A stretch of 64,000 bases of DNA from Naegleria gruberi (taxonomy: Eukaryota): assembly GCA_000004985.1 (NCBI GenBank), contig GG738907.1; one strand, 5' to 3'. The notes below the pieces were generated by a model, which saw only the letters and a list, made by a program, of their open reading frames with translations, did not search any database and was not told where the DNA came from. The position numbers and the translations under genes were made by a program. Within the stretch, counting starts at the first letter, position 1; every line of letters begins with the position of its first letter. This document shows, in pieces, positions 653-61,429 of this stretch.

Positions 653-2929
653 TTAATAAGATTCAATAACTTGTGATAAATTCAAATCAGATAAAGCAAC
701 AGTATCAATATAACCATCATATTTGGTATTAATTAAATGTAAGAATATGACCAAAGCATAAAAAACGTTATTTCTTCCAGGTTGACATTCATATAAATTA
801 CCATCATCTTCAACATTGTAATGTGAAATGCTAACTTTTGATTTACATAAATACAATCCCTTCTTTACAGGTACTTGTTTATCTAAACCTCTCTTCTTTT
901 TCATTGCATTTGCAACACCTGGTGCTAACATATTTCTATTTCTAAATAAATTGTGTGGATTTTCCTTCTTTTCAATATTTTGATCACAATAATACTTGTT
1001 TGAAAATTGACTTGAATGTCCATGTGAATCCAAAGTAAAATCCATAAATTTACAAAATAAATTAACAATAATTTCTTCATCTGTTGGATAAATTTCTTGT
1101 TCATATAAAAATTGTTCTGAATTATTTAACATTGGACGTGAATTTGGTTTTTCAAATTGACCTTTTGACATTGAACGTATTCTATCAATAACATATTTTC
1201 TACATGCAATTTTATCTGTTGAATCAAATAAATTTAAATTTGGAATTGATAAATAACGTTCCAATCTTAATCTTCTTCTTAATAAATTTCCAAATTCAAC
1301 ATTTTTTTGTTGATTTGTTTGTGGTTGTGATTGATTAAAACCATTTGAAAATCCAAAACCAGAATTAAAACCACCACCAACACCACCAATACCTCCATTC
1401 AAATTATTTGATTGTTGTTGTTGATCAATTTGTGTTACCAATGTTGCTAAAACATATTTCAATGTAAATTTTGAAGTATCTTCAGTGTGTGGAATTGAAT
1501 TTGGAATTGAATGTTGATATTCAGGTGAAATATCAAGTGGATTAAATGAATCATAACCTTTAAAATCACAATTAAATTGAATTGTCTTGTGCATTTGTAA
1601 ATTAATTGAATCAATTTCTTTAATTGTTGGAATTAAAACTCCATAAATCATCCATTTTCTCATATTTTCAGACCAATTATTAACTGTAAATGTTGTTAAA
1701 TTTAACATTTCTAATGCTTGTGATGCTTGTTCACCTAATAATAATGCATTACCAGAATATTGTTGATTTAATTGTTGATTTAATTGTTCATGATTTAAAA
1801 TAAAATCTTCATTAATTTGATTAGAAGGTGCTCTTCTATATTCTAATTTACCTGAATTTGAATCAAAAACAGATAATCCAATACTTGGATTTATATTAAA
1901 TTGAAGTGCAACTTGTGTTGGTTGTAATTGAAGTGATTGTTGTTCTTGTTGTTGTTCTTGTAATGATGAATTATATAAATAGGAAGATGTAGATATAGAT
2001 GATGGATCATACATCATATTATTCATCATCATCATGTTATTATTATAAACACCACCCATCATATTAGTATTCATATTCATATTATTAATATTCATATTAT
2101 TAATATTCATATTAGTATTCATATTCATATTATTAGATTCATCCATACTAAATATTAAATCATAATTAACAGTATTATTTTTATCCTTTTTTAATAATTG
2201 TTCTTGTTTTGAACGTTCTTGTTCTTGTTTTAAATATTCTTGATATAAAAAGTAATCATAATCATTAATTTCTTCCTTATTTTTTAATCCTAATAAAGCA
2301 TGTCTATTAGATAAATAATCAAATTGATTCATTTCATTAATTAAATCAACATTGTGTTGTTCATGATTAATTTGTCTATTTCCTAATAAAACATTTTTAA
2401 AATGTTTAAAAATTCTTTTACATTGTTTTAAAGGTGATTTTAAAAATTCAAATAAAAATTTGTAAAATTTAGATGAAAAATAAGTTTTAAAAAAAGGTTT
2501 TACCTTCTTTGGATTATTTAATAAATAATTAATTCTTTTAATAATATATATTAATAATAATAAACAAATAGTATATGTTATTAAATAATATAATATTAAT
2601 GATGATAATATATACTTTCTAATAAAAATTTTAAATATATTTGTATGTATCATTACAAAGAATAATAATAAAAATAAAGATAATTGTATTAATGAATTCC
2701 ATGATTGTTGAATATATTGTTCATGTTGATAGGCTAAATTTCTAACCTTGTATAAACTATCTAAATGATCAACTGGTTGTATTCCGTAAGAAGTTTGATT
2801 TGTTGTTGTTGTTGTTGTTGTTGTTGTTGATGAATTTTTATTGTTGCGTTGTTCATCAGTGTCATCTTGTTGTTGTTGTTTTGATGAAGGTGAATGACCT
2901 TTTAAAAGTGTGGAAAGAAATTGCAACAT
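653..2929 (-). CDS. membrane protein with two predicted TM helices and a long low-complexity region (Asn/Met/Gln repeats); possibly TMEM209-like, which is uncertain
   Basis: Long minus-strand ORF. The real ATG is at 2929-2927 in aaaaaaaaATG context; the ORF-track start at 2965 is a TTG. Two hydrophobic segments follow the N-terminal region (LSLFLLLFFVMIH and LLLLIYIIK). The C-terminal 250 aa are complex, non-repetitive sequence. Confidence 0.55.
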   Translation of the reverse strand: MLQFLSTLLKGHSPSSKQQQQDDTDEQRNNKNSSTTTTTTTTTNQTSYGIQPVDHLDSLYKVRNLAYQHEQYIQQSWNSLIQLSLFLLLFFVMIHTNIFKIFIRKYILSSLILYYLITYTICLLLLIYIIKRINYLLNNPKKVKPFFKTYFSSKFYKFLFEFLKSPLKQCKRIFKHFKNVLLGNRQINHEQHNVDLINEMNQFDYLSNRHALLGLKNKEEINDYDYFLYQEYLKQEQERSKQEQLLKKDKNNTVNYDLIFSMDESNNMNMNTNMNINNMNINNMNMNTNMMGGVYNNNMMMMNNMMYDPSSISTSSYLYNSSLQEQQQEQQSLQLQPTQVALQFNINPSIGLSVFDSNSGKLEYRRAPSNQINEDFILNHEQLNQQLNQQYSGNALLLGEQASQALEMLNLTTFTVNNWSENMRKWMIYGVLIPTIKEIDSINLQMHKTIQFNCDFKGYDSFNPLDISPEYQHSIPNSIPHTEDTSKFTLKYVLATLVTQIDQQQQSNNLNGGIGGVGGGFNSGFGFSNGFNQSQPQTNQQKNVEFGNLLRRRLRLERYLSIPNLNLFDSTDKIACRKYVIDRIRSMSKGQFEKPNSRPMLNNSEQFLYEQEIYPTDEEIIVNLFCKFMDFTLDSHGHSSQFSNKYYCDQNIEKKENPHNLFRNRNMLAPGVANAMKKKRGLDKQVPVKKGLYLCKSKVSISHYNVEDDGNLYECQPGRNNVFYALVIFLHLINTKYDGYIDTVALSDLNLSQVIESY

Positions 2930-3112
2930 TTTTTTTTTCAATTTTTTAAAAATGTCTTTGAACAATTCCCTTCAACTTTAATAAAACATTTTCAATAGAA
3001 TGGAAAAAAAAAGACCAATGGAAAACACCATAAATTTCGAGCAAGGTTCTATATTAATGAATCAGAGTCACAGTTTAAATGTTTGCAATGAAATGTAGCT
3101 ATGACAAATTTA

Positions 3113-6100
3113 TTAATTTAAAAATCTTTTTAAATAATGATCTAATAATTGTCTCAATTCAATTGCTTCTTCACCATGGAAATAAGAAAGGAAGTATGAT
3201 AATTGTCCTAACCATTTCTTAATCATGTCATTATTTGATCTATTATTAAAAAGTTGTCTCTTATCACTTGTATTATTATTATTATTACTATTATTACTAT
3301 TACTATTATTATTATTATTATTAATATTATTACTATTATTATTAAAAGAAGGAAATAAAAAAATAGAACCAAATTTAAATAAAGAAATGTAAAGTAAATT
3401 TGCCAAATCAAAAATTAATTTACCAACAACATTTCCTTTTAAACCCCAAAATACTAATTCATCTGTTAAAAATCTAATATCATAATATAAAAATGTAAAT
3501 TCTTTTTGTTTTAAAATATCATTAATAATATCAATGGTAATATTTTTTGATTGTTGTTCATCTAAATTTTTTAATGATAAATAATATTCACCATATTTTC
3601 TAAATTTAGTAAGTGTAAAAACAATTGAATCTTCTAATGCATTATAAACAGGTGATGATTTTGAACCAGGTGTTGAATAAAATTGTGTAATTGATAATCC
3701 TTTTGAAAATTTAATTGTTAATAATTTCTTTTCACGTATATTATCATAATTATAAATAAATAAATGTTCTTCAATATATTTAGTTTCTATTTTTAGTAAT
3801 TCTGATAAAATTGGTTTAATTACAATTGTATGACTTGATTCAGGTGGTATTGTATATATTTTAAATTCATCTGTTGTAATATAATTATTTGTATCTACTT
3901 GTATTTTAAATAATTTACAAAAATCATCTCTAATAATATATAATAATGGTTGTTTAAATAAATTCTTTAATGTAATTGGATATTTATCTATTGTATTTCC
4001 ATTTATATCCATCATTATATTATTATCATTTCCAATAAATGTTACTTCTTGTTTTGTTAAATACATTTGTGGTTTAACACATGTTGATGTTACTTTTATC
4101 ATTCTTTGATAATCTTTAAGTAATTTACATTTAATAAATATTTCAAATTCATCTAGAAATATTTCATTATCTCCATTATTATTATTATTATTATTATTAT
4201 ATTCATTATTATTGTTATATTCATTATTGTTATTATTATTGTTATCATTATATGATGATGATGATGATGATACTTTATATAATAAATAGACACGTGTTTT
4301 AGATTTAGGTTCAACACGTAAACTATAAAATGGTTTTAATGATGTTAATGAAAGTGAAAAATGTAATTCTGTTGTTTCAATATTATGATTAGATGTAAAA
4401 AAGAATTCCAATGGTGTATCATTTGTTAAATTTACAATATCAATAAAACGATGTCTAATTAATGTATCAATAAATGCTGTTCCTAAATTCATTTTCAAAT
4501 AATTTTCATTATTATTACTATTATTACTATTAGATGAATTATTATTATTAATAGATGTATTATTATTATTATTAGATGAATTATCATTAATTAATAAAGA
4601 TTCATCATTACCATCAACTCTAATATCAAATAATTTTTCAGGATCTTCAATTTCACTTAAAATTTCCAAACTTGTTCTCAAAGTTTTAAAATCCAATGGA
4701 TTATTTAAATTTTCAATAACAATATAATCAGTAAAACTTTCAATACTATCAGTTTTAAATGTAAATGTTATTTGATGTGAATCAAATTGATCAATTAAAC
4801 CACTTGTATGACTAATTTTAAATGGTGATGATTGTGTATTAATTTTACCTGATATAGAAAATATTCTATATTTAACATCTTGTGGTGTTGGATTTTCTAA
4901 TGTTATTTTACTTTCAACTATTTTACTTGATAATGTTCTACGATGTCTCAATTCAATTTCATATCTATTCTTTTTATCTATTTGTCTACATCCTTTTAAT
5001 ATTAATATACTTGAATTATTTGTTGTATTATTTGTATTATTTGTATTTGTATTAGTAGTAGTAGTAGATGTATTGGTATTGGTTATATTAGCAGCACTAC
5101 CTCCAGGACTATTACTACTATTTAGAGGAGTTGGTGTACTTGATTCCAAATTTGATAATGTTGGTGTTGGTGTTGTCAATATATCAACACTTGTACTTCC
5201 ACTATTCAAAGTATTATTACTAATATTATTATTATTAATATTAATATTACTATCAATAGTTAAAGATTTAAAATAATCAACTGCTTTAACATTTAAATGT
5301 ATAGATTGAGTAGTTAATGGAGCATTATCATCAATAACAGATAATTGACAATATTTTCTCAATAATGAAAGTTTTTCCAATACTTGTTCTCTATCTTGTA
5401 TAGATGAATAATCAATAAAAACGCTAATAACAGTTGATAAAGCAGGTTCTAATAAACCCTTTTCAGGAAATATAGTAATATTAATACCATCTAAATTAAT
5501 AGTTGAATCATTTACATCTTGAAAATTATTAGTTGAAAATGTAAAGAATTGTTTCTTAATTTTAAAATATAAAGCTTCATATTTCTTTACATTTTTAATT
5601 GTAAATGATTCTGATAATGTTCTTGTTGATTCAAAATAATTATTTGGTAATTTAAAATCTAATTTTTCTAATGAAAGTGAAAATGAAGGATATTGTACAA
5701 TACTTCCAAATATATCAAATACTTCTTTTGGTTGATTTGAAGATTCAAATATAAATTTACCAAAATGAATTAATTTTAAATCATTTAAATCTTGATTTGG
5801 TGAATTAATTTGTGAATATAATTCTTGTGGTATTGTTGAATTTTGTTTAGCTCTACATCTAATTCTAATATATAATGTTGATTTCTTTTCAAATTTATAT
5901 TCTTTAATTGGCATACTTGTTGAAAAATCTAATAAATCTATTTTTAAAAATTGACAAATTCTTGGATTATCAAAAATTACTTTAAATTTTGAATCAATTT
6001 TAAAAGAACTATTATTACCAATAGAAAGTGTTAAATCACTTATAGATGAAAATAATGTTGGTGATTTCATAATTTCTGGATATTGAAGTGGTGGCATTCT

Positions 6101-6160
6101 AATTGTTGTTGTATTTGTTAATCCTGTAAAATCCCAAACACATTGTGTTATATTTGCCAT
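3113..6160 (-). CDS. giant multi-ASH/PapD-like repeat protein, C-terminal segment (segment 4 of 4)
   Basis: 1015-codon ORF ending at stop 3113. It contains I/L-x-F-G beta-sandwich repeat motifs (IHFGKFIF...) and Asn/Thr low-complexity linkers. Its reading frame is open upstream of the ORF-track M and overlaps the end of the 6238..8586 ORF in a different frame. Confidence 0.6.
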   Translation of the reverse strand: MANITQCVWDFTGLTNTTTIRMPPLQYPEIMKSPTLFSSISDLTLSIGNNSSFKIDSKFKVIFDNPRICQFLKIDLLDFSTSMPIKEYKFEKKSTLYIRIRCRAKQNSTIPQELYSQINSPNQDLNDLKLIHFGKFIFESSNQPKEVFDIFGSIVQYPSFSLSLEKLDFKLPNNYFESTRTLSESFTIKNVKKYEALYFKIKKQFFTFSTNNFQDVNDSTINLDGINITIFPEKGLLEPALSTVISVFIDYSSIQDREQVLEKLSLLRKYCQLSVIDDNAPLTTQSIHLNVKAVDYFKSLTIDSNININNNNISNNTLNSGSTSVDILTTPTPTLSNLESSTPTPLNSSNSPGGSAANITNTNTSTTTTNTNTNNTNNTTNNSSILILKGCRQIDKKNRYEIELRHRRTLSSKIVESKITLENPTPQDVKYRIFSISGKINTQSSPFKISHTSGLIDQFDSHQITFTFKTDSIESFTDYIVIENLNNPLDFKTLRTSLEILSEIEDPEKLFDIRVDGNDESLLINDNSSNNNNNTSINNNNSSNSNNSNNNENYLKMNLGTAFIDTLIRHRFIDIVNLTNDTPLEFFFTSNHNIETTELHFSLSLTSLKPFYSLRVEPKSKTRVYLLYKVSSSSSSYNDNNNNNNNEYNNNNEYNNNNNNNNGDNEIFLDEFEIFIKCKLLKDYQRMIKVTSTCVKPQMYLTKQEVTFIGNDNNIMMDINGNTIDKYPITLKNLFKQPLLYIIRDDFCKLFKIQVDTNNYITTDEFKIYTIPPESSHTIVIKPILSELLKIETKYIEEHLFIYNYDNIREKKLLTIKFSKGLSITQFYSTPGSKSSPVYNALEDSIVFTLTKFRKYGEYYLSLKNLDEQQSKNITIDIINDILKQKEFTFLYYDIRFLTDELVFWGLKGNVVGKLIFDLANLLYISLFKFGSIFLFPSFNNNSNNINNNNNNSNSNNSNNNNNTSDKRQLFNNRSNNDMIKKWLGQLSYFLSYFHGEEAIELRQLLDHYLKRFLN

Positions 6161-6237
6161 TATTGTTACATTTAATATATTATTAGGATTATTAATATTT
6201 TCAAATTGAAGTGAAAGTGAAAGTAAATTATCATTTT

Positions 6238-8586
6238 CTAATAAATTATTAGAATATTATTATTAGAAAAATTATTAAAATCTTTAAATTCACTTGTTTT
6301 TAAAATACAAATAATAGTTTTTTGTCCTTTAGGTGGAATGGTCCATTTTGTTCTACTACTCATTTCATTACTATTATTACTACTATTACTACTATTACCA
6401 GGACTATTAGTAGATAATGTTGGTGATGATTGATCAAAGTGTTGTAATAAATTCATAGTTGTTGTTGAAGTAGTAGAACCACCACCACCAGATGATGTTG
6501 GTGTGATTGGACTCATTGAAGAATAATTTGAAACAAATTCAATTCCTTTTGGTTTTGAAATTAATTTAACTTTTGATAAAACATCTGAATGATCATTATT
6601 TAAAACTATTTGAAATTTTCTATCAGACCATTTATCAATATAACCAATTTTACCTAAATTAATTGTATTTGATCTTAATGAAACTTCAGAAATACCCATT
6701 TGAATATGAACATTAATTAATTTTAATGCTCGTTGTTCATCATCTGATAAAATTAAAGATCTTTGAAGTTCAACATAATTCTTTTTCAATAAATTTTCAG
6801 TTTCATTATCATTCATTGTTAAAGGTAGACCTGATAACATTGTTACAAGTGTTAATTGTTCACCTGCAGGTAAAATGAATGGTTTACCCTTATTTGGATA
6901 TTGTGTAAATGAATTAAATTGTTTAATTCTTTCTAATTTTTCAATTGAATTTAAAGATGATAATTGTTTAGATTTTTGTTTTTTAACAAATACAATCATA
7001 TCAATATCACTATTAGGTATTAAAATCATATCATTTTTAGAAATGTTTGATAATTGAAATTCTTGTACACCTAATATTGTTGAATTTCTAATTTCATTTC
7101 TTAATTCTTCATCTGAATCTTGTAAATAATCATATTCTTCAACAAGTTGATTTGCTAATTTTTGTAAATGTTGATGTGGAATTCCTGTTATTTTTACAAT
7201 TTGATCATTTTCATCTTGTTCTTTAATAACATAAACATTTGAAAATACCAAAGCATCAACTCCTGAACTATCAGCTTGTAAATTATTACGTAATGATTTA
7301 CGATCATCAACAAATGCACGTATCGCTATTTTACTCACTTCACTATTATTATATGAAGATGATTTGTTTATAATTGTAAAATAATGATCATGAAGTCCAC
7401 TTGTTAATGGATTGAATGTAAATTTTAATACCTTCTTGTTATTTTCATCATCTTCATTAGATGATGTATTATTTGTAGTAGTAGTAGATAATGTATTAGT
7501 AGATGATATGTTATTAGTATTATTACTTGTTGGAATAGGACTATTAATAGGAGTATTATTATTACTATTATTATTATTATTGGAAGAATTAATTTTACAT
7601 CCAATTAAATTACCAACTCTCTCTGAATCATTATTTAAATATAATTCATTTGGTGAAGATGAAATAATTTCATATTCTAAAGGTAAGAATTGATTTCCAT
7701 TTGATAAAGTAAATTGTGAATTAAATGTTTTTAAATTACTTGACCAACCAAAATCAATAAATTGATTATCAATATTTAAAATACTTTTACCAACAAATGC
7801 TCTAATTTGAATGACTTGAGAAAATATTTGTTTTTCTTCATTTAAAACATTTAAAACAATACTACTTGAAAATGAAATACATTTACCCTTCTTTGCTAAA
7901 TTAGAATTTAAATGTGGTTTTAATCCAACATGAATAGTAATAGTTTGTTGAGGTTCTATTTTAATGATTGATTTTTCTGTTAATAAATTTTGTAAATTTT
8001 CATCTGAATAAATTAAAATTTGTTTTTTAGAATTGGAAATTAATTTCAAATTCAATGAATAATCTTTTGTATTTGTAATTTTAAAATTTGAAACTTTTGA
8101 TAAATTATCCAATATTGTTGTTGATGTTGTTGTTGTTGATGTTGGTGATAATTCTGATAAATTAGATGTTGTAGTTGTTGTTGATAAAGATGATAAAGGA
8201 TGAATATAACAAAATCCAAAATTTAAAATTCGATCTTGATTAATATTTTCAATATGAATAGGTGAATCAACTATAACTCTACATTTGATTAAACATTTGT
8301 GAATTATTTTAGTTTTTAAATCTTGAATTTGAACTGAAAATGTTTGAATTCCAGGTAAGAAATATTCGCATGTTAATTCAATAATTTCATGTTTACATGG
8401 TGCAATAGTACCATTCTTAATATTAAATTGAACTTGATAAGATTCTTGTTTTGTTGAATCTAAAATTACAAATCCTGCTTCTTCACTTTTAGATTCATTA
8501 TTAATTGTTAATTTACATTTAATCTTTTCACCAATAGAATTAACACCTAAATCAATTTCATTTGGAACAATTTGAATTGATTTCAT
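6238..8586 (-). CDS. giant multi-ASH/PapD-like repeat protein, segment 3
   Basis: 782-codon ORF with repeated ASH-like motifs (LNFGFCYIHPL, IDFGWSSNLKTFNSQFTLSNG, INLGKIGYIDKW). Its frame is open upstream into the 8789..12214 ORF region. Confidence 0.6.
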   Translation of the reverse strand: MKSIQIVPNEIDLGVNSIGEKIKCKLTINNESKSEEAGFVILDSTKQESYQVQFNIKNGTIAPCKHEIIELTCEYFLPGIQTFSVQIQDLKTKIIHKCLIKCRVIVDSPIHIENINQDRILNFGFCYIHPLSSLSTTTTTSNLSELSPTSTTTTSTTILDNLSKVSNFKITNTKDYSLNLKLISNSKKQILIYSDENLQNLLTEKSIIKIEPQQTITIHVGLKPHLNSNLAKKGKCISFSSSIVLNVLNEEKQIFSQVIQIRAFVGKSILNIDNQFIDFGWSSNLKTFNSQFTLSNGNQFLPLEYEIISSSPNELYLNNDSERVGNLIGCKINSSNNNNNSNNNTPINSPIPTSNNTNNISSTNTLSTTTTNNTSSNEDDENNKKVLKFTFNPLTSGLHDHYFTIINKSSSYNNSEVSKIAIRAFVDDRKSLRNNLQADSSGVDALVFSNVYVIKEQDENDQIVKITGIPHQHLQKLANQLVEEYDYLQDSDEELRNEIRNSTILGVQEFQLSNISKNDMILIPNSDIDMIVFVKKQKSKQLSSLNSIEKLERIKQFNSFTQYPNKGKPFILPAGEQLTLVTMLSGLPLTMNDNETENLLKKNYVELQRSLILSDDEQRALKLINVHIQMGISEVSLRSNTINLGKIGYIDKWSDRKFQIVLNNDHSDVLSKVKLISKPKGIEFVSNYSSMSPITPTSSGGGGSTTSTTTMNLLQHFDQSSPTLSTNSPGNSSNSSNNSNEMSSRTKWTIPPKGQKTIICILKTSEFKDFNNFSNNNILIIY

Positions 8587-8788
8587 TGTTGTTGTTGTTA
8601 ATGATGATGATTGATTACTATTAATTAATTTTGTTACTGATTTGTTATTGTTTGGTATTAATAATTTTGATATGGTTGATTTGTGTAATGATGATATATT
8701 ATTATTATTAGTATTATTAGTATTAAATGTAGTACCAGTTGTTATTGTTGCAGTATTGTTATTAGAATTATTTGTAAGGGTAGTATTA

Positions 8789-11700
8789 TTAGTAGTACCA
8801 ATGGTAGTAGTAGCTACTACTATATAAAGGTGTTAATGGAGTACTAACATTTGAACCTGTTGAACTACTACTACCACTGTTTTGAGTAAAATTCTGGAAT
8901 GATTTGATATCGAAATGTACAATAGAACTCAGAGTGACCATCTTTTGTTCATCTGTATTTCTATTTTCATAAACTAACATTCTACATATACCATTCTCAA
9001 ATGCAATATTTGGTGTTTCTATTAATAGTGGTTTAATCTTTAAATTAATAACTTGAGACATTCTAGGTGGAATTGAAAATCTAATTCCATTCTCTTCAAT
9101 CTTTTTGAATTTTCTTTGTTTTTTACCTTCATCATCTGATTCAGAAACAAATAATGAATCTTCAATATTATTAGTAGTAGAATTACCTGTTATTGTTGTT
9201 GCAATAGTTGGAGTATAATCATCAAAATTTAATTCCTTTTTAATTTCATTAATTCTTTCAGTTAATTTTTTAATTTTTGATGACTTGTTCTTTCTAACAC
9301 AAATTCTATATTTGTGTTCTAATTTTTCTAATTCTGCTTCTAATTTTTCAATTTCAGTACTTTGACTAACTTGTTCCAATTCATATTCAAATTCAAATTT
9401 ACAAAAACTAAAACTACAATAATCAATTTGTGTTTCAAATATTCTTCTATTCTTACTCATATTTGTAACAACAATTTTTTTAGAAAGTGAAAATTGATTC
9501 AATAAAATATTTCCAAAATTAATATCATTAGATTTCAATGTAAATTTTTCATAATTTCTAATATCTGCCTTTACAATAATATTAATACTATCAGATTCAT
9601 CAAGTACATTTTCAAATGTTAAAGTTTCATTAAATACACCTGGTAATGATGGTTTAAAATAGAGTTGAATATCACGTGAACCATATGGTCTTACTAAACC
9701 ACACCATGATAAATTTAATGAATCATCTAACATGTCTAATATTTTAATATCATTAGATGCAATTGAACCTGATCTTTTTATACGAAATAATAATGGTACT
9801 TCAGATCCATTTGAAATGGTTATTGTCTTTTTACGATCTTCTACATTGGTAATGGATCCAAAATTTATATTCTTTTGTGCAATTTCCATCATGGATTGAC
9901 AAATTTTAGATTGAATTGTTAATTCTCTAGGTGGTAATGTAAAATCTGTTTGTTCATTATTTGTATCATAATCTATTAATTCAATAAATAATTTTTCAAA
10001 ATTCTTTTTAATTGCATTCATTGAATTTGTATTATTATTATTGGTATTATTAGTATTGATATTACTACTACCAGTAGTAGTTGTAGATGAAATAGATGTA
10101 GTAGTGTTTGTTGAAATATTATTGAATGAAAAATCACTGTATAAAGATAGAGGTGAAGAATTATTTAAATTAATTGAAGTAAATTTGCTATTTGTACTTT
10201 TTGGTCGATAGGTAATGTAAATTTCAGTTGAACTTGTTGGTCCAATTGAAATTGTGTCACATGGAATGAGAAATTTCAAATCATCAATTGAATTTGAAAG
10301 TTTCTTTTTAAATTCCAATTCATCTCTAATAATCATTTCTTCATCAACATTTTGTGTAGTATCAAATAAAGATTCTTGAATTTTTTCATAAGTTGAAACT
10401 AATTGATCACAATATTCTTGTGGATTAACTTGTTCAGTAAATAATTCATCTGTTACTGATGAATATTCACTATCATCAATCATTAAATTATCATCACTTC
10501 CATCACTGGTTTCATCACTATCATAAATACTCAGTGGTGTTTTTAATTCATCAATACCTTCAAAATGATGAATATTTAACTTTGAAACGTTGGGTTGAGT
10601 CATTATTGATTGTAAATATTCTAAATTTGTTGGATCATTTAATTGTGAAATAAATTTATCATCCATTGATGTTGATCTCTTCAAGGTATTTGATGATTCA
10701 TCCTTCAACTTTTTAAGATAGGGTGATTTTGGTGTGAGTACTGATGAAACACCTGTATTATTAGTACTTGCACTATTATTTGATGTTGTTGTTATGGTAC
10801 TCAATGAAGAAAGTGGTGTTAAATTAGATTGACTTGAAACTCTTTGTAAATTTGAAGTTACAATTTGTTTAACCTTCTTTTTTCTTCTTTTATGAAGAGG
10901 TGGTGGTGTTGATTTAAATTGTTGTTCACTTTCATTCATACTACTATCATCTGTAAATTGTCGATTATTTGTTGTTGTTGTACTACTGTGTGGACTTATT
11001 GTATCATCTTCATCAAAATGATGATGCTGATGAACATTGGATGAAATTAAATTGTAATGATCAGATTGTGAACCACCACCACCACCACCAGATGAATAAT
11101 CCTGATTTGTTATTGTTGTCGTTCTTTTAACTTTAAAAGTTGAAATTTCATTTGGAGATGAAGATTTAAATTTCAATGTAATTGGTTCATCTGAAATGTT
11201 TGAAATTTGAAATTTAGAAAGTGAAATGCCATTCAAAGCAACAACACCAAAATTAATTGATTTTGCAAAATTATGTTGTGAAGTAGTATGTACATCATAA
11301 TATTTACAATGAAAATTTAACATATTTCTATCAATATTATTAGATTCAACTTCAATAATTTGTTCATTCAATTTGTTACTTTCATTTACAATTGTAATTT
11401 GTTTTCTATAATTTGGATTAACTCTTCTAGGTGATAATCTAAATGTAATTCTAATAAATTTATGAGGTGAAATAATTGCTGATTTTGTTTTACATGTTAT
11501 TACTTTAGATGTAAATTGAACTGAAATTCTTGTTGCCAAATCAGATCTATTATAAATTGTTACTGATGCAAATTTAATATCTCCAATGGTTGAATCTCCA
11601 AATTTAATATTAGAAGGTGATACTTCAATAATAGATGTACATGTATGTGCAATAGCTTTAATACTTGCAACTACATTCATTGTATTAGAACTATTATTAT

Positions 11701-12214
11701 TATTATTGGAGGTAGTATTTGTTGATAATAATTGATCATTCATCATTATGGATGATGTATTTGATGATGCTGATGATGTATCAATAGCACTTGTTGTATT
11801 AGCAGAAGTATTTGAAGCACTATTAGTAGTATTACCACTGCTACTACTACTATTACTACTACTTGTACCACCACTCTTCTTACATGTGATTAGAATGGTA
11901 TTCTTTGATTTGGTGACTGAAGTATCTGTAGTGAGTGAATTTTCATCCAATTTAACATGAGCACAAACCATTATCTTTCTTTCAGCTTTAGGTTTAAGTG
12001 AAATTTCTTGAATTCTTTCTCTATAAATTTGTTGAGTATTTGGTAGACAAGTTGAATTGAAATGTGGATTTGAATGATCCATTGAAAGTAAAAAATCATG
12101 TAAATTTGGATCATACAATTCAAAATGAATAAAATCAACATTTTCATGATTATTATGAGAATGTTGATGATGGTGATGATGATGAAAACCATGTTGTTCA
12201 TTATTTCCAATCAC
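8789..12214 (-). CDS. giant multi-ASH/PapD-like repeat protein, segment 2
   Basis: 1141-codon ORF. The ORF-track start is a GTG, not a real start, and the frame stays open upstream. It has many repeats of the pattern I-x-F-G-x(10-14)-I/V-x-I/V-x-N-x-S (IKFGDSTIGDIKFASVTIYNRS, INFGVVALNGISLSKFQISNIS, INFGSITNVEDRKKTITISNGS, INFGNILLNQFSLSKKIVVTNMS), separated by Ser/Thr/Asn linkers and poly-His. Confidence 0.6.
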   Translation of the reverse strand: MIGNNEQHGFHHHHHHQHSHNNHENVDFIHFELYDPNLHDFLLSMDHSNPHFNSTCLPNTQQIYRERIQEISLKPKAERKIMVCAHVKLDENSLTTDTSVTKSKNTILITCKKSGGTSSSNSSSSSGNTTNSASNTSANTTSAIDTSSASSNTSSIMMNDQLLSTNTTSNNNNNSSNTMNVVASIKAIAHTCTSIIEVSPSNIKFGDSTIGDIKFASVTIYNRSDLATRISVQFTSKVITCKTKSAIISPHKFIRITFRLSPRRVNPNYRKQITIVNESNKLNEQIIEVESNNIDRNMLNFHCKYYDVHTTSQHNFAKSINFGVVALNGISLSKFQISNISDEPITLKFKSSSPNEISTFKVKRTTTITNQDYSSGGGGGGSQSDHYNLISSNVHQHHHFDEDDTISPHSSTTTTNNRQFTDDSSMNESEQQFKSTPPPLHKRRKKKVKQIVTSNLQRVSSQSNLTPLSSLSTITTTSNNSASTNNTGVSSVLTPKSPYLKKLKDESSNTLKRSTSMDDKFISQLNDPTNLEYLQSIMTQPNVSKLNIHHFEGIDELKTPLSIYDSDETSDGSDDNLMIDDSEYSSVTDELFTEQVNPQEYCDQLVSTYEKIQESLFDTTQNVDEEMIIRDELEFKKKLSNSIDDLKFLIPCDTISIGPTSSTEIYITYRPKSTNSKFTSINLNNSSPLSLYSDFSFNNISTNTTTSISSTTTTGSSNINTNNTNNNNTNSMNAIKKNFEKLFIELIDYDTNNEQTDFTLPPRELTIQSKICQSMMEIAQKNINFGSITNVEDRKKTITISNGSEVPLLFRIKRSGSIASNDIKILDMLDDSLNLSWCGLVRPYGSRDIQLYFKPSLPGVFNETLTFENVLDESDSINIIVKADIRNYEKFTLKSNDINFGNILLNQFSLSKKIVVTNMSKNRRIFETQIDYCSFSFCKFEFEYELEQVSQSTEIEKLEAELEKLEHKYRICVRKNKSSKIKKLTERINEIKKELNFDDYTPTIATTITGNSTTNNIEDSLFVSESDDEGKKQRKFKKIEENGIRFSIPPRMSQVINLKIKPLLIETPNIAFENGICRMLVYENRNTDEQKMVTLSSIVHFDIKSFQNFTQNSGSSSSTGSNVSTPLTPLYSSSYYYHWYY

Positions 12215-12236
12215 TGTACTTGTATTACTACTACCA

Positions 12237-13496
12237 CTACCAATTGTTATTGTTATTACTACTATTACTACTATTATTATTATTACTATTATTATTATTA
12301 GAATTATTAGAATTACTAGTCAATCCAAAAAAAACATCAAAAGTATCAGTACTACTTTGATTTCTTAAAGTAATTAATTTAAAAGAAGTTTGACCTTTAA
12401 AAAATTCACCAAAATCTAATTTTGAAATTGTTTGTTTACCAAATTCATCTAAAATTAAAATATTTCTAATTGTATTTAAACCAATTAATTGATTATTTTC
12501 AAATTCAGTTGAAAAAACAATTGATTTAATAATTAAATTTGATAAAATTTCATTATTAAATTGTAAATTAACATTTAAATTAATTTCACCAATAATTTTA
12601 GGTATAAAAATAACGTTAACTCTCATTGAAGAATGTGCCATAATTAAATTATCCATTTTTAATATTTTACCTGTTTCATATTCTGTAAATGTTAAATCTG
12701 CAATAAAATTTTCATTTTCTTGTAAAATTTCTTTAATTGGATTTGAACTTGATCTATTTCTATTTATATTTGAAATTGAATTTTTAATATTTACATTTGA
12801 ATTTGAAATTAAATTAAAATAAACATTTTCTTCTGAAGTATTATAAATTGTAAATTCTTTAACATATTTACGATTAATTATTGAACTTCCAATTTCAATT
12901 TCATTTTCATCAATTTTAATTTTAGATTCATTTAATTGTATTATAAATGGTAATTTAATTTTATCAAAATTTTGTAATGTTATTAAATCTAATATAATAT
13001 TTCCATTTAAAGAATGTAATAAATTATTTTCATTTTTAGTTGATTTTAAATTAATTTTAAATATATTATTTTTATATTTTTTAATTGTTAATTGTTGTAA
13101 ATTATATAATGTATTAAATAATTGATTAGAAAATTCATCATTTTCAAATGTTTGAAATGAAATTAAAGTTTGTTGACTTGATAATCTAATTACTAAATCA
13201 TTTGATGTATGATTTTCAATTTTTATAATTTTAGATGAATTTTCTCTTGAATTTTTAAATATGATCGGATCATTAATAATTGTTGTATTTAAATTTAAAT
13301 TTAATTTTACAATTATTCTTTCTTCTATTGTTGTGTTATTATTATTATTAACAGATTGAATGACTTCCTTGATGAGAATATATTCTTCAGTGTCGTCATC
13401 TAATTGTTGTTGTTGCTCCGTATTGTCCATTGTCGTCATCACAGTCATAATATTATTATTACTAGTGGACAAGGACGAAGGAGATGTGGAGGACAT
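12237..13496 (-). CDS. giant multi-ASH/PapD-like repeat protein, N-terminal segment carrying the start codon
   Basis: ATG at 13496-13494 in aaaaaaaaATG context. 419 codons with an ASH-like repeat (LDFGEFFKGQTSFKLITLRNQSS). It ends in a poly-Asn tract whose stop overlaps the next ORF in another frame. Confidence 0.6.
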   Translation of the reverse strand: MSSTSPSSLSTSNNNIMTVMTTMDNTEQQQQLDDDTEEYILIKEVIQSVNNNNNTTIEERIIVKLNLNLNTTIINDPIIFKNSRENSSKIIKIENHTSNDLVIRLSSQQTLISFQTFENDEFSNQLFNTLYNLQQLTIKKYKNNIFKINLKSTKNENNLLHSLNGNIILDLITLQNFDKIKLPFIIQLNESKIKIDENEIEIGSSIINRKYVKEFTIYNTSEENVYFNLISNSNVNIKNSISNINRNRSSSNPIKEILQENENFIADLTFTEYETGKILKMDNLIMAHSSMRVNVIFIPKIIGEINLNVNLQFNNEILSNLIIKSIVFSTEFENNQLIGLNTIRNILILDEFGKQTISKLDFGEFFKGQTSFKLITLRNQSSTDTFDVFFGLTSNSNNSNNNNSNNNNSSNSSNNNNNW

Positions 13497-13830
13497 TTTT
13501 TTTTAATTTTAGGCTAGATGATAATATTATCATGTCATTCTGCAGTTTTGAACAAGTAAGGCACTAAACAGCAATCCAAACCTATTCAATTACTTTTCAA
13601 CAACAAAAAGATGCCGTCAGAAGCTAGTTTATACATCAATTGAACATCAGCCGAAAGGTGATGAATATTAAATAGGTTTTCATCATTGGCAAAGCAACAC
13701 TCTTTTATTAATGAGAAGGAGACAATTGTCGAGCATAAAAATGAACATCCAAGTAGAAAATTCAAGTAAAAATATTTCAAAGGCTTGAATTATGGTTTTA
13801 ATAAAAATAAAAGAAAATCCAATTCAGGAT

Positions 13831-14109
13831 TTATTCAACGCTTCTTACAGGTCTCTTATTATAATAGTCTAATAAAGTTTCATCATTTGATAATCTTTCT
13901 TCTAAATATTCTTTGAGTGTTTTAGCCTTTTCAGCTTGTCCACCAAACTTTTTCAAAATAGTGCTATCATCAAAGTTCTTTCTCAATTCACTTAACATAT
14001 CACTTTCATAAACAAATGAAATCTTTTCAGTTGTCTTTTCATCAAGGAACAATTTAGCTACTGCCCAAGCAGTTGAGAATAACCATGGTGCACGCATTAA
14101 TGTTGCCAA
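13831..14109 (-). CDS. Sec14-like (CRAL-TRIO) protein, exon 4 (C-terminal)
   Basis: Encodes LATLMRAPWLFSTAWAVAKLFLDEKTTEKISFV, the typical CRAL-TRIO C-terminal helix, up to the stop. The acceptor is ..attatag after a 42-nt intron. The ORF-track M here is really a TTG Leu codon. Confidence 0.75.
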   Translation of the reverse strand: MATLMRAPWLFSTAWAVAKLFLDEKTTEKISFVYESDMLSELRKNFDDSTILKKFGGQAEKAKTLKEYLEERLSNDETLLDYYNKRPVRSVE

Positions 14110-14151
14110 CTATAATTATTATTAATATTTAAATTTTGTAAATAAATTTAC

Positions 14152-14336
14152 CTTCAATCTTTCAGGGAAATAATTTTGACAAGTTCCAAGAATTGATTTA
14201 TCCAATTTAGTATCTACACATGATAATGACCATCCTTTATAATCAATAACAACAACAAATTTTTCTAACTTTCCACCAGTTTGTAATCTTAATTCATGGA
14301 ATGCAACTTCTAATACAAATCCAACAAGTTCTTCAA
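14152..14336 (-). CDS. Sec14-like (CRAL-TRIO) protein, exon 3
   Basis: Encodes EELVGFVLEVAFHELRLQTGGKLEKFVVVIDYKGWSLSCVDTKLDKSILGTCQNYFPERLK, the CRAL-TRIO lipid-binding core (ID-KG-S, NYPERL motifs). It is bounded by a 47-nt intron upstream and a GTAAAT donor downstream. Confidence 0.7.
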
Positions 14337-14383
14337 CTATTTTATAATATATTCAAATGATAATAGTATAATATAATACATAC

Positions 14384-14449
14384 TCAATTCATATGGCTGT
14401 AAAGTTCCTGGTACAAAGTTTGAAATTGCTAAACATAAACATGGACATC
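14384..14449 (-). CDS. Sec14-like (CRAL-TRIO) protein, exon 2
   Basis: 66-nt exon after the acceptor ..aataatag. It encodes GCPCLCLAISNFVPGTLQPYEL (compare SEC14L DRDGCPVWYDIIG) and is in phase with exon 1. Its donor is GTATGT. Confidence 0.55.
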
Positions 14450-14662
14450 CTATTATTCATAATAACAACAACAAGTATTATTAAAAACCATGATCATAGC
14501 GTCATAATGATCATCATTTTAAAATTCAATGATACCATTCGGAATAGTACAACACCAACACCAATAGTAGTAGTAATATTAGTAATAGTAGAATGATATT
14601 ATATAGTTAATATATTGAATAATAGGAATTATCAACAAACCTTCTTTATCAGAACCCATAAA

Positions 14663-14892
14663 NNNNNNNNNNNNNNNNNNNNNNNNNNNNNNNNNNNNNN
14701 NNNNNNNNNNNNNNNNNNNNNNNNNNNNNNNNNNNNNNNNNNNNNNNNNNNNNNNNNNNNNNNNNNNNNNNNNNNNNNNNNNNNNNNNNNNNNNNNNNNN
14801 NNNNNNNNNNNNNNNNNNNNNNNNNNNNNNNNNNNNNNNNNNNNNNNNNNNNNNNNNNNNNNNNNNNNNNNNNNNNNNNNNNNNNNNNNNNN
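14663..14892. other. assembly gap (N-run) inside intron 1 of the Sec14-like gene
   Basis: 230 N characters. The sequence on the two sides is near-identical (see findings). Confidence 0.95.
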
Positions 14893-14976
14893 GGAATAGT
14901 AGTACAACCAACACCAATATTAGTAGTAGAATGAATGATATTATTATATAGTTAATATATGNAATAATAGGAATTA

Positions 14977-15322
14977 TCAACAAACCTTCTTTATCAGAAC
15001 CCATAAAACATAAAAATTCTTCAAGTTTAGGAAATAATTCAACAAATCTAGTTAATTTTGATTGATCTAAATTCATTCTTTGTCTCCATCTAATTAATTC
15101 AATAATACCACTGATAGTCTTATCAACATTTCCACTGTAGGCTCTCAACCATCTAACATAAAAAACATCATCATTAACTTCAGATCTTTGCATAAAATCA
15201 TTTAATTTTGGTAAAAGATCAGCAATATCTGGATATTTAGAAGAAAGATTAGCAATGGTAAGCTTATTCTTTACTTCAACAATCAATTTTTGTTCTTCCG
15301 ATGTAAAGACGAGAGCATTCAT
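14977..15322 (-). CDS. Sec14-like (CRAL-TRIO) lipid-transfer protein, exon 1
   Basis: ATG at 15322. Encodes the CRAL-TRIO N-terminal helical region (FYVRWLRAYSGNVDKT...IRWRQ) through FMGSDKEG. A GTTTGT donor at 14976 follows a split codon. Confidence 0.7.
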
Positions 15323-18564: not shown

Positions 18565-19284
18565 ATGGATGTTGATAATTTCATTGATAATAGTCCTCTA
18601 ATGTCAATTGCATCTAGTCCTACATTAAAACTTATATCAGAAAATGATGATAATGAAAGAGAGGAGGAAGAATTTAATAATCTAGACCGCAATGACAATA
18701 CTTATTTAAATGTTGATGAAAATAGTATCATTGAAAGTTGTAATGCAAGTACATGTGGGGATGAATATAAGGAAGAAGAAGAAGAAACCATAGTTGAGGA
18801 AGAAGAAATACAATCGGATGATGATGATGGCGCTGGTTCACCTACTACAAGTACTAAAGGAGATATTCTTAATCAATTATTATCCGCACCAATTTCAAAT
18901 TCTTCTTTTAAGCATATAAGATTAAATCCTCAAGATTTACATTTTAATAGTAGATTATCACCCAATCATTTATATCCTCAATCATCTTCTTCATCATCAA
19001 ATACAACAAGTCCAAATAACAAATTAATTGTACTTGCTAATAATAATAAGCATAATTCTCAATCATCAACACCAATGTCATTTATGAAATCAAGTTCAAT
19101 ATATTCAAAACCAACATCAAATGCAACTTCAAGAGCAAAAAGATCTTCATCACTCTCAACTCCAACTCAATTAAATAATCATCAATTATTAGATAAACAT
19201 TCACCTCCACCTCATCATCCTCATTCTATGAATATGAATAATACAATGAATAATTCAAATAATTCATATAATAATAATAATTAA
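18565..19284 (+). CDS. acidic and Ser/Asn-rich disordered protein, or the 5' part of the next gene
   Basis: ATG-initiated 239-codon ORF. It ends TAA TAA only 8 nt before the next ATG, which is in a different frame. Confidence 0.4.
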   Translation: MDVDNFIDNSPLMSIASSPTLKLISENDDNEREEEEFNNLDRNDNTYLNVDENSIIESCNASTCGDEYKEEEEETIVEEEEIQSDDDDGAGSPTTSTKGDILNQLLSAPISNSSFKHIRLNPQDLHFNSRLSPNHLYPQSSSSSSNTTSPNNKLIVLANNNKHNSQSSTPMSFMKSSSIYSKPTSNATSRAKRSSSLSTPTQLNNHQLLDKHSPPPHHPHSMNMNNTMNNSNNSYNNNN

Positions 19285-19292
19285 TAAATAAC

Positions 19293-21050: not shown

Positions 21051-21129
21051 GTAATTTATTAATTTTTATAATTTTTATATTTAATAATTTTAATTTAATT
21101 TTTATATTTTTAATTAATTTTTAAAAAAG

Positions 21130-59819: not shown

Positions 59820-59890
59820 GGGGGCGAGGGGGAATCGAACCCCCGGCCACAGCTTTGGAGGCTGCGATGTTACCATTACACCACCGCCCC
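59820..59890 (-). tRNA. tRNA-Trp (anticodon CCA)
   Basis: Minus strand GGGGCGGTGGTGTAATGGTAACATCGCAGCCTCCAAAGCTGTGGCCGGGGGTTCGATTCCCCCTCGCCCCC. The acceptor stem is 7 bp with one G-U pair. A-box TGGTGTAATGG, B-box GGTTCGATTCC. Anticodon stem GCAGC/GCTGT with loop CTCCAAA, giving anticodon CCA. It is followed by TGTT. Confidence 0.85.
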
Positions 59891-61264: not shown

Positions 61265-61327
61265 AAGTTCAACAGGGGCGGTGGTGTAATGGTAACATCC
61301 AAAGCTGTGGCCGGGGGTTCGATTCCC
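61265..61327 (+). pseudogene. tRNA-Trp(CCA)-derived locus with an 8-nt internal deletion (probable tRNA pseudogene), inverted relative to the 59.8-kb copy
   Basis: Identical to the minus-strand tRNA-Trp except that GCAGCCTC is missing. That sequence is the 5' half of the anticodon stem plus two loop nt. The result is a 63-nt sequence that cannot form a cloverleaf. The 3' flank CTGTTATTTTAATTTTA and the 5' flank TTCAACA are shared with the other copy. Confidence 0.6.
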
Positions 61328-61429
61328 CCTCGCCCCCTGTTATTTTAATTTTACTCACTTAACTTTTAATGGAACAACTCGGCTTTTCAGTCTTGCAAAT
61401 AGGAACTTTCGGAATTAAAATTAAAAAAA

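What the first reader, a model, noticed from the sequence alone, without database searches (positions are those of the whole stretch)
3113..13496. Giant (about 3,350 aa) multi-ASH/PapD-like repeat protein encoded by four abutting ORFs
Four large minus-strand ORFs (12237..13496, 8789..12214, 6238..8586, 3113..6160) lie end to end with only 0-80 nt between them. All contain the same repeat architecture: more than 15 copies of an I/L-x-F-G-x(10-14)-hydrophobic-x-hydrophobic-x-N-x-S/G beta-sandwich motif, separated by Asn/Ser/Thr linkers. This is characteristic of ASH (ASPM/SPD-2/Hydin) or MSP/PapD-like Ig-fold domains. The first ORF has a proper aaaaaATG start and the last ends in a normal 3' flank, so this is most likely one gene. 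Proteins with this many ASH domains are usually ciliary (hydin, CFAPs) or centrosomal (Cep192/SPD-2). An amoeba without cilia would make a centrosome- or trafficking-related role more likely.
Basis: partly seen in the sequence, partly recalled or inferred. Interest (0 to 1): 0.6.

Follow-up and report, generated by a model that had tools for sequence, protein, structure and literature searches.

The report
Giant ASH-domain protein gene, frame-broken
The four abutting reading frames are one roughly 3,460-residue gene made of about 17 ASH-type (Hydin-like) immunoglobulin folds, from a low-GC Naegleria relative; it belongs to an unstudied protein family found across eukaryotes, including species without cilia.

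Summary
The four minus-strand ORFs are real and sit at the stated coordinates. They are one gene. Joined, they give a 3,459-aa protein that aligns end to end (60% identity) with a single-exon, 3,562-aa hypothetical protein of Naegleria lovaniensis, and also with 2,900-4,900-aa proteins from most eukaryotic supergroups. At least one Ig domain spans an ORF junction.

The junctions are single-base frame changes (+1, +1, -1) in Asn/Ser/Thr low-complexity DNA. The most likely cause is indels in a draft assembly. Very short introns cannot be excluded at two of the three.

The ASH/PapD-like reading holds. Pfam hits are weak for the window but clear for the orthologue. AlphaFold models show tandem beta-sandwiches. 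The best PDB matches are ciliary central-apparatus ASH proteins, and the family profile hits Hydin at 8e-20.

It is not Hydin and not Cep192: the Cep192 SP2D motifs are absent.

The source is a heterolobosean amoeboflagellate, probably Willaertia magna. The family does also occur in non-ciliated Dictyostelium, Capsaspora and Mucoromycota, so a strictly axonemal role is unlikely.

Function is unknown. My inference is a cytosolic scaffold. This is a new member of a known kind, of moderate interest.

The parts
3113..13496 (-). Whole gene: about 10.4 kb, encoding a reconstructed 3,459-aa protein after three frame corrections
   Evidence: Collinear with the single-exon N. lovaniensis P0001 (60% identity over 3,208 columns) and with 21 full-length homologues.
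12237..13496 (-). Segment 1 (frame 0, aa 1-417): N-terminus plus about 3 ASH-like domains. The third domain continues into segment 2.
   Evidence: Ig-CFAP74_2, 23.9 bits; ORF2 residues 30-111 are predicted strands, pLDDT about 45-70; the alignment with the orthologue supports reading them as the second half of the domain begun at LDFGEFFKGQ....
12240..12319 (-). Junction J1: frames 0 and +1 are both open. The shift most likely lies at ...AAT AAC AAT T|GGT AGT GGT..., just before the TAG.
   Evidence: It lies in a poly-Asn/Ser loop that is variable in N. lovaniensis. Formal GT..AG solutions of 46-58 nt also exist.
8789..12214 (-). Segment 2 (frame +1): the most conserved ASH domains, a disordered region of about 230 aa, and a conserved coiled-coil hairpin
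   Evidence: AF2 model m8ebcfe5c3289, pLDDT 60; folded domains mostly 75-94.
11336..11677 (-). ASH domain with the best Pfam match (IKFGDSTIGDIKFASVTIYNRS...PRRVNPNYRKQITIVN)
   Evidence: Ig_CFAP65_4th 36.1 bits, CFAP74_4th, PapD-like; strands at ORF2 180-293, pLDDT 80-93; among the most conserved blocks in the family (36-45% column identity to the window protein).
9233..9361 (-). Conserved helical hairpin (EIEKLEAELEKLEHKYRICVRKNKSSKIKKLTERINEIKKEL), inserted inside an ASH domain
   Evidence: helices at ORF2 952-974 and 978-994. Lys/Ile/Arg positions are invariant across the family.
8792..8832 (-). Junction J2: frames +1 and +2 are both open, at the transition from (AGT)n to (ACT)n codon repeats
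   Evidence: It lies in a variable linker. Formal 43-64 nt GT..AG solutions exist.
6238..8586 (-). Segment 3 (frame +2; open from 8832): about 4-5 ASH-like domains
   Evidence: Collinear with homologues.
6241..6256 (-). Junction J3: a 16-nt overlap of frames +2 and +1, inside an ASH domain between strands F and G. The likely cause is one missing base near ATT(T)CT.
   Evidence: The only formal intron (GTGAAT..TTATTAG, 56 nt, 6238-6293) would delete Ser-Glu-Phe, which matches Asn-Glu-Tyr in N. lovaniensis and Asn-Glu-Leu in Acrasis. It would also leave a 4-residue loop where homologues have 7-13.
3701..6136 (-). Five predicted beta-sandwich domains of segment 4
   Evidence: AF2 model m3525ef7b62dc, mean pLDDT 71. 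Foldseek top hits are ciliary central-apparatus ASH proteins.
3119..3652 (-). Family-specific C-terminal alpha-helical domain (…YYDIRFLTDELVFWGL…KKWLGQLSYFLSYF…)
   Evidence: helices at ORF4 837-1014; conserved in all homologues; no Pfam model. As a query together with the preceding beta-sandwich (window 3116-4180, 355 aa), it retrieves only 81 representatives out of 1.84 billion proteins; in the long proteins the match lies at the C-terminal end.

Best explanation
This is a single protein-coding gene of a low-GC heterolobosean amoeboflagellate, probably Willaertia magna. It encodes a protein of about 3,460 aa with no signal peptide and no clear transmembrane segment.

The protein is built from about 17 ASH-type (Hydin/PapD-like) Ig beta-sandwiches strung on Asn/Ser/Thr-rich disordered linkers. 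A conserved basic helical hairpin is inserted in one domain, and a family-specific helical domain sits at the C-terminus.

It is the orthologue of N. lovaniensis C9374_001723. It belongs to an uncharacterised family of similar-sized proteins present in most eukaryotic supergroups.

The split into four ORFs is not biological modularity. It comes from three single-base frame changes in low-complexity DNA. These are most likely indels of a draft assembly or of unmerged alleles. Less likely, two of them are very short introns.

Inferred mechanism (not shown): an elongated, flexible cytosolic scaffold. Its ASH domains would act as protein-binding modules on microtubule-organising or endomembrane structures. 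The C-terminal helical domain and the basic hairpin would act as anchoring or oligomerisation elements. Because the family persists in lineages without cilia, its core role is probably not axonemal.
For: One gene:
- The joined protein aligns end to end with a single-exon 3,562-aa orthologue at 49-66% identity in all four segments.
- It is collinear with 21 full-length homologues.
- Conserved domain sequence continues across J1 and J3 (AF2 shows the second half of the J1-spanning domain at low-to-moderate confidence).
- Synteny is conserved: CytB561_N | gene | CRAL_TRIO.

Frame breaks:
- The open frames overlap, and the pattern is +1, +1, -1.
- The assembly is a draft. It has an N gap 1.2 kb upstream, flanked by two indel-variant copies of the same sequence.
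- A RhoGEF gene in the window is broken in the same way in a poly-Asn/Ser tract.

ASH array:
- Pfam.
- AF2 beta-sandwiches.
- Foldseek top hits are central-apparatus ASH proteins, E about 1e-29 to 1e-22.
- The family profile hits Hydin at 8e-20, plus FAP81, CFAP65 and FAP74.

Family breadth, all members annotated as hypothetical: Heterolobosea, Euglenozoa, malawimonads, CRuMs, oomycetes, Rhizaria, Picozoa, a liverwort, many early-diverging fungi, a nucleariid, Capsaspora and Dictyostelium purpureum.

Soluble: the maximum Kyte-Doolittle 19-mer score is 1.51, and the N-terminus is not hydrophobic.

Organism: the best hit is Naegleria; GC is 20-35%. W. magna is described as 25% GC, 4,505 scaffolds, with four flagella (PMC6892926).
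Against: - No functional data exist for any family member, so the scaffold and localisation statement is inference from domain type and phyletic pattern only.
- Window-level Pfam scores are mostly below the curated cutoffs.
- The AF2 models have low pTM (0.40-0.44), so inter-domain geometry is unknown.
- ORF1 and ORF3 were not modelled.
- If the source assembly is high-coverage Illumina (as for W. magna C2c Maky), three consensus indels in 10 kb would be unusual. That leaves real frameshifts or introns open.
- This genome does have 42- and 47-nt introns that N. lovaniensis lacks.
- The species assignment is indirect.
Confidence: 0.8

Rival explanations
1. The junctions are genuine very short spliceosomal introns (about 45-60 nt) rather than indels. 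The genomic sequence is correct and the mRNA encodes one protein.
For: Formal in-frame GT..AG solutions exist at all three junctions. The neighbouring CRAL_TRIO gene has 42- and 47-nt GT..AG introns that N. lovaniensis lacks, and one of them is open in frame up to its terminal TAG, just like the J3 candidate. The published W. magna assembly is deep Illumina, where consensus indels are rare.
Against: The orthologue is intronless. The candidate 'introns' at J1 and J2 are made of the same AAT/AGT/ACT codon repeats as the flanking coding sequence, and such repeats create GT and AG by chance. At J3 the only possible intron removes a conserved [SN]-E-[FYL] and shortens a loop to 4 residues, against 7-13 in homologues. 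Donors such as GTGAAT, GTAGTA and GTTCAA differ from the GTATGT and GTAAAT seen in real introns here.
Confidence: 0.25
2. It is a flagellar central-apparatus protein, a Hydin/CFAP47/CFAP65-type projection component used in the flagellate stage.
For: The best structural and profile matches are central-pair ASH proteins. The organism makes flagella.
Against: Identity to these proteins is only 6-10%, and the profile match to Hydin is reported as two short stretches (best one about 50 residues). No Hydin_ADK or other Hydin-specific Pfam domain is found. Clear orthologues with the same C-terminal domain exist in organisms without cilia: Dictyostelium purpureum, Capsaspora, Mucorales/Umbelopsis, Glomeromycotina and Rigifila.
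Confidence: 0.1
3. It is the heterolobosean Cep192/SPD-2 orthologue, a centrosome or MTOC scaffold.
For: There are weak Pfam hits to Cep192_D4, D1 and D6 (the orthologue scores 36.2 against a cutoff of 35.5, but with no single significant stretch). Foldseek finds CEP192 SP2D structures at rank 25-30.
Against: The SP2D-defining motifs PLxGYGG and GDExxR (PMC11922060) are absent from the window protein, and PLxGYGG is absent from all 56 family sequences examined. The family profile does not hit CEP192 chains at E<=1 but does hit Hydin at 8e-20. Cep192 is reported only from animals and Amoebozoa (PMC8467581), whereas this family is pan-eukaryotic.
Confidence: 0.03
4. The frameshifts are real, and the locus is a recently inactivated pseudogene or is expressed as four separate polypeptides.
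For: Three frame changes are present in the sequence as given. No independent copy of this species' gene was found for comparison.
Against: Apart from the three junctions there is no in-frame stop in 10.4 kb of AT-rich DNA. All four segments retain 49-66% identity to the orthologue, with family-invariant residues conserved. Conserved domain sequence continues across J1 and J3 (AF2 support for the J1-spanning domain is low-to-moderate), so separate polypeptides would carry broken domains. ORF2 has no ATG start.
Confidence: 0.1

Closest known systems
Naegleria lovaniensis hypothetical protein C9374_001723 (P0001) and its uncharacterised orthologues, e.g. Dictyostelium purpureum DICPUDRAFT_79246, Capsaspora CAOG_009434, Spizellomyces SPPG_04324 and Plasmopara 'PapD-like'
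   Same: The length (3,100-3,800 aa) and the domain order from end to end are the same, as are the conserved helical hairpin and the C-terminal helical domain. Identity to P0001 is 60%, and the gene neighbours are conserved.
   Different: The window copy carries far more Asn/Ser/Thr low-complexity insertions. It is frame-broken three times. It lies inverted relative to its flanking genes.
Hydin and the other central-apparatus ASH proteins (CFAP47/FAP47, CFAP65/FAP65, CFAP74/FAP74, FAP81/DLEC1, CFAP221)
   Same: All are giant cytosolic proteins made of tandem ASH-type Ig domains. They are the best structural matches and the best profile matches.
   Different: Homology is at the domain level only, at 6-10% identity. 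The Hydin ADK-like domain is missing. This family has its own C-terminal domain and occurs in non-ciliated lineages.
Cep192/SPD-2
   Same: It has several ASH domains following or interspersed with disordered regions. Pfam Cep192_D4 and D6 hits are weak, and SP2D structures appear among the Foldseek hits.
   Different: The SP2D motifs are absent, there is no sequence-profile hit, the protein is much larger, and the phyletic range differs.

Membership tests
ASH / PapD-like (Hydin-CFAP65-VesB type) Ig-fold superfamily | Sequence match to curated ASH-type Pfam models at or above the gathering score | tested here: met
   Window ORF2: Ig_CFAP65_4th scores 36.1 bits against 27. Orthologue P0001: HYDIN_VesB_CFA65-like_Ig 51.5/25.5, Ig-CFAP74_4th 48.7/28, ASH 42.9/27, PapD-like 36.3/27. 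The other window hits are below cutoff.
ASH / PapD-like (Hydin-CFAP65-VesB type) Ig-fold superfamily | Tandem beta-sandwich fold resembling solved ASH-domain proteins | tested here: met
   The AF2 models show 5 and about 5-6 beta-sandwiches. Foldseek top hits are 7som_D, 9ijj and 7sqc central-apparatus chains at E 1e-29 to 1e-22. The family profile hits Hydin at 8.4e-20.
Hydin | Hydin-specific architecture (about 4,000-5,100 aa with the Hydin ADK-like domain) and full-length collinearity | tested here: not met
   No Hydin_ADK hit appears in the Pfam scans. The profile match to Hydin is reported as two short stretches, the best about 50 residues. phmmer of the orthologue against Hydin gives only E=0.15.
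Hydin | Restriction to organisms with motile 9+2 cilia (established knowledge) | tested here: not met
   Orthologues with the family C-terminal domain occur in Dictyostelium purpureum, Capsaspora, Umbelopsis/Mucorales, Glomeromycotina and Rigifila.
Cep192 / SPD-2 | [quoted passage not shown] | tested here: not met
   Both motifs are absent from the window protein and from P0001. PLxGYGG is absent from all 56 family sequences. Cep192_D4 scores 26.9 bits against a cutoff of 35.5. No CEP192 chain is hit by the family profile at E<=1.
Cep192 / SPD-2 | [quoted passage not shown] | tested here: inconclusive
   SP2D structures 9fh8 and 7ptb appear only at Foldseek ranks 25 and 30, with TM 0.1-0.35. 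Inter-domain geometry in the AF2 model is unreliable (pTM 0.44).
Uncharacterised pan-eukaryotic giant ASH-array family (C9374_001723-like) | End-to-end collinearity with members of about 3,000-3,900 aa | tested here: met
   occupancy is high in the conserved blocks from N- to C-terminus across 21 homologues and drops only in the low-complexity linkers.
Uncharacterised pan-eukaryotic giant ASH-array family (C9374_001723-like) | Signature C-terminal region (…IEIYVNCRLVKDYQ…, EKYIxEHxTIYN, YITDELVYYG, KW…YFLSFFP) and the conserved helical hairpin | tested here: met
   The motifs are present in the window protein as EIFIKCKLLKDYQ, TKYIEEHLFIYN, FLTDELVFWGL and KKWLGQLSYFLSYF.
TRAPP-subunit / OCRL / MSP-VAP ASH proteins (trafficking) | Significant match to TRAPPC, OCRL-ASH or MSP models together with their catalytic or complex-specific domains | tested here: not met
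   Only sub-threshold hits were found (OCRL-like_ASH 13.4 bits, TRAPPC13_C 10.5 bits). No phosphatase, RhoGAP or TRAPP domains are present.

The most novel reading that the evidence does not exclude
The gene represents a LECA-age family of giant, non-axonemal ASH-array proteins that has never been studied. The family has its own C-terminal helical domain and a conserved basic hairpin. It is retained in ciliated and non-ciliated lineages of most supergroups. It was not seen in animals or in the standard yeast models among the hits examined (one plant, a liverwort, was found), which may explain why nobody has worked on it. It would be a sister kind to Hydin-type proteins, working on a cytoplasmic microtubule-organising or membrane structure.
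Probability: 0.5. Interest if true: 0.6.

Novelty: new member of a known kind. Interest (0 to 1): 0.4.

Why it matters
ASH domains mark proteins of cilia, centrosomes and the Golgi, yet what the domains do is largely unknown. A 3,000-4,000-aa ASH-array protein conserved from Naegleria and Diplonema to oomycetes, a liverwort, chytrids, Mucor, Capsaspora and Dictyostelium would be an ancient eukaryotic component with no assigned function. It could be tested directly in tractable non-ciliated models such as Dictyostelium and Mucor, and in Naegleria differentiation.

On the practical side, the locus shows how low-complexity tracts in very AT-rich draft genomes split large genes into pseudo-ORFs. 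Annotators should merge such ORFs using orthologue collinearity.

Tried and rejected
1. The first homologue search, with unmasked ORF4, found nothing: 8,000 candidates were saturated by poly-Asn words. Masking the low complexity solved this.
2. A profile search with the C-terminal alignment returned only 4 fragments and missed known members, so it says nothing about distribution. The exhaustive representative search replaced it.
3. Exact-protein look-ups of three window ORFs found no independent copy. The frame breaks could therefore not be checked against other data.
4. The afdb50 fold library was unavailable.
5. I looked for inverted repeats flanking the gene that might explain its inversion relative to N. 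lovaniensis. None were found.
6. Programmed ribosomal frameshifting was considered and rejected. The shifts go in different directions (+1, +1, -1), lie in non-conserved linkers, and have no shared slippery motif.
7. Dictyostelium origin was rejected. The best hit is Naegleria at 60% identity with conserved synteny, while D. purpureum is only a distant family member.
8. I tried to use the DUF5578 neighbour as a second clear frameshift example. This was inconclusive, because the upstream ORF has no detectable similarity to the N. lovaniensis gene.
9. Literature searches found no paper on this family.

Full report
**Observation.** In DNA of 20-27% GC such frames cannot be chance. The longest open frame is 1,176 codons, against a mean longest of 87 (maximum 153) in 200 shuffles. 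The ORFs are not simply end to end. They lie in frames 0, +1, +2 and +1, and the stop-to-stop open frames overlap by 80, 41 and 16 nt. The ATG/GTG-to-stop gaps are 22, 202 and 77 nt. An iterated HMM built from these repeats finds 11 units in the window protein and 6-12 (mostly 9-12) in homologues.

**One gene.** Joining the frames inside the overlaps gives a 3,459-aa protein. A search with low complexity masked found a 3,562-aa hypothetical protein of Naegleria lovaniensis at 2,522 bits. It also found about 50 proteins of 1,700-3,800 aa from Acrasis, chytrids, Mucoromycota, Glomeromycotina, Neocallimastigomycota, a nucleariid, an oomycete and Plasmodiophora. The global alignment with the Naegleria protein runs from Met1 to the C-terminus, with 60% identity over 3,208 columns and 49%, 62%, 55% and 66% in the four segments. 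The Naegleria gene is a single exon of 10,689 nt. A 22-sequence alignment shows high occupancy in the conserved blocks along the whole length, dropping only in the low-complexity linkers. Conserved sequence continues across junctions 1 and 3. In the AlphaFold model of ORF2, residues 30-111 form strands (pLDDT about 45-70) that the alignment places as the second half of the domain begun at the end of ORF1. Junction 3 sits between strands F and G of a domain whose two halves both align to the orthologue. The neighbours are conserved too: a CytochromB561_N gene on one side and a CRAL_TRIO gene on the other.

**Nature of the junctions.** All three lie in Asn/Ser/Thr codon repeats that are variable between species. 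Each can be repaired by one base:
- J1: AAT-T-GGT.
- J2: the AGC/T-ACT boundary between (AGT)n and (ACT)n.
- J3: ATT(T)CT.

Formal GT..AG introns of 43-64 nt that restore the frame exist at every junction. AGT/AAT repeats generate such pairs by chance. Short introns are nevertheless real in this genome: the adjacent CRAL_TRIO gene has 42- and 47-nt introns that N. lovaniensis lacks. At J3 the only possible intron (GTGAAT..TTATTAG, 56 nt) would delete Ser-Glu-Phe. That tripeptide matches Asn-Glu-Tyr in Naegleria and Asn-Glu-Leu in Acrasis. The deletion would also shorten the F-G loop to 4 residues, against 7-13 in homologues. I therefore favour an indel at J3, and by parsimony at J1 and J2.

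The sequence is a draft. A 230-nt N run at 14663-14892 is flanked by two copies of the same ~110 nt that differ by small indels, which looks like unmerged alleles. A RhoGEF gene at 30740-33779 is frame-broken in a poly-Asn/Ser tract in the same way. I cannot tell assembly error from a real allele without reads. Programmed frameshifting is unlikely, because the shifts go in different directions.

**Organism.** The closest protein and the synteny point to a close relative of Naegleria, not to Dictyostelium. The window's GC of 20-35% fits Willaertia magna, which is described as 25% GC, 36.5 Mb in 4,505 scaffolds, and with a four-flagellate stage (PMC6892926). This assignment is an inference.

**Architecture.** Window Pfam hits are modest: Ig_CFAP65_4th at 36 bits is above cutoff, while Cep192_D4, CFAP74 Ig and PapD-like are below. 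The less biased orthologue passes the cutoffs of HYDIN_VesB_CFA65-like_Ig, Ig-CFAP74_4th, Ig_CFAP65_4th, ASH, PapD-like and DUF1573.

AlphaFold with a 22-sequence alignment gives two models:
- ORF4: five beta-sandwiches followed by a ~180-residue helical domain (mean pLDDT 71).
- ORF2: about five to six beta-sandwiches, a ~230-residue disordered stretch, and a conserved helical hairpin inserted in one sandwich (mean pLDDT 60, folded domains mostly 75-94).

Together with the HMM units in ORF1 and ORF3, this gives about 17 domains.

Foldseek against the PDB ranks ciliary central-apparatus chains first for both models (7som_D, 9ijj, 7sqc; E 1e-29 to 1e-22; 6-10% identity). CEP192 SP2D structures appear only at ranks 25 and 30. 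A family profile hits Chlamydomonas Hydin at 8.4e-20, then FAP81, CFAP65, FAP74 and CFAP221, and no CEP192 chain at E<=1. A single sequence reaches Hydin only at E=0.15.

No signal peptide or convincing transmembrane helix is present. The C-terminal region has no Pfam model.

**Family.** An exhaustive phmmer search with the last 355 residues found 81 representatives among 1.84 billion proteins; in the long proteins (about 2,000-4,900 aa) the match lies at the C-terminal end. The named clusters add Riccia (a liverwort), Blastocladiella, Sorochytrium, Albugo, Phytophthora, Aphanomyces, Paulinella, Nonionella, Gefionella, Diplonema, Picozoa, Diphylleia, Rigifila, Umbelopsis, Capsaspora and Dictyostelium purpureum. 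All are annotated as hypothetical or by domain name only. No animal member appeared among the 30 clusters examined, but absence is not proven. Several of these lineages have no cilia.

**Mechanism.** What is shown: a soluble giant array of ASH folds with conserved non-ASH elements, under purifying selection across eukaryotes. What is inferred: it acts as an elongated scaffold. The ASH domains would serve as interaction modules, as proposed for other ASH proteins (PMC11922060). The basic hairpin and the C-terminal helical domain would mediate anchoring or self-association. The phyletic pattern argues against a purely axonemal role and is compatible with an MTOC/spindle or endomembrane role. I put about 0.3 on that functional statement and about 0.8-0.9 on the gene model and family assignment.

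**Comparison and novelty.** It works like, and is homologous at domain level to, Hydin-type ASH proteins, but it fails the Hydin and Cep192 membership tests. There is no Hydin-specific domain, and the family has non-ciliated members. The SP2D motifs PLxGYGG and GDExxR are absent from the window protein. It is a clear member of an existing but uncharacterised orthologous group. Hence: a new member of a known kind, with moderate interest. The interest lies mainly in the family being ancient, large and unstudied.

Noticed in passing
window 653-15322 versus L001 3435-17835: Gene order is conserved with N. lovaniensis: CytB561_N(-), giant gene, CRAL_TRIO(-). The 10-kb giant gene alone is inverted, on the minus strand here and the plus strand in N. 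lovaniensis. No N runs or flanking inverted repeats occur at its borders.
   Followed up: partly
window 14663-14892 and flanks (about 14550-14662 and 14893-15003): An N run of 230 nt sits inside the CRAL_TRIO gene. It is flanked by two near-identical ~110-nt copies that differ by small indels, and there is a single 'n' at about 14961. It looks like unmerged allelic or overlapping contig ends, which is evidence of draft quality and of indel polymorphism in low-complexity DNA.
   Followed up: partly
window 14110-14151 and 14347-14393 (minus strand): There are two very short GT..AG introns (42 and 47 nt; GTAAAT..TATAG and GTATGT..AATAG) in the CRAL_TRIO gene. At these positions the N. lovaniensis orthologue is uninterrupted.
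   Followed up: partly
window 30740-33779 (minus strand), junction 32712-32743: A RhoGEF (DH-domain) gene is split into two overlapping ORFs in different frames inside a poly-Asn/Ser tract just after the DH domain. This is the same kind of break as in the giant gene.
   Followed up: partly
window 18565-21062 (plus strand): ORFs 18565-19284 and 19293-21062 (the latter DUF5578, orthologous to the N. lovaniensis neighbour) are 8 nt apart in different frames within a poly-Asn tract. No GT donor lies within about 80 nt upstream. Whether they form one gene could not be shown.
   Followed up: partly
window 15545-18382 (plus strand): A 945-aa gene with aminotransferase class V plus MOSC_N/MOSC domains (molybdenum cofactor sulfurase-like) lies between CRAL_TRIO and DUF5578. 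In N. lovaniensis those two genes are adjacent.
   Followed up: no
window 59820-59890 (-) and 61275-61337 (+): A tRNA-Trp (CCA) gene is present, plus a second, weaker tRNA-like match found only by Rfam.
   Followed up: no
window 1-24000 versus 40000-64000: GC content rises from about 16-25% in the first third of the window to about 26-35% in the last third.
   Followed up: no
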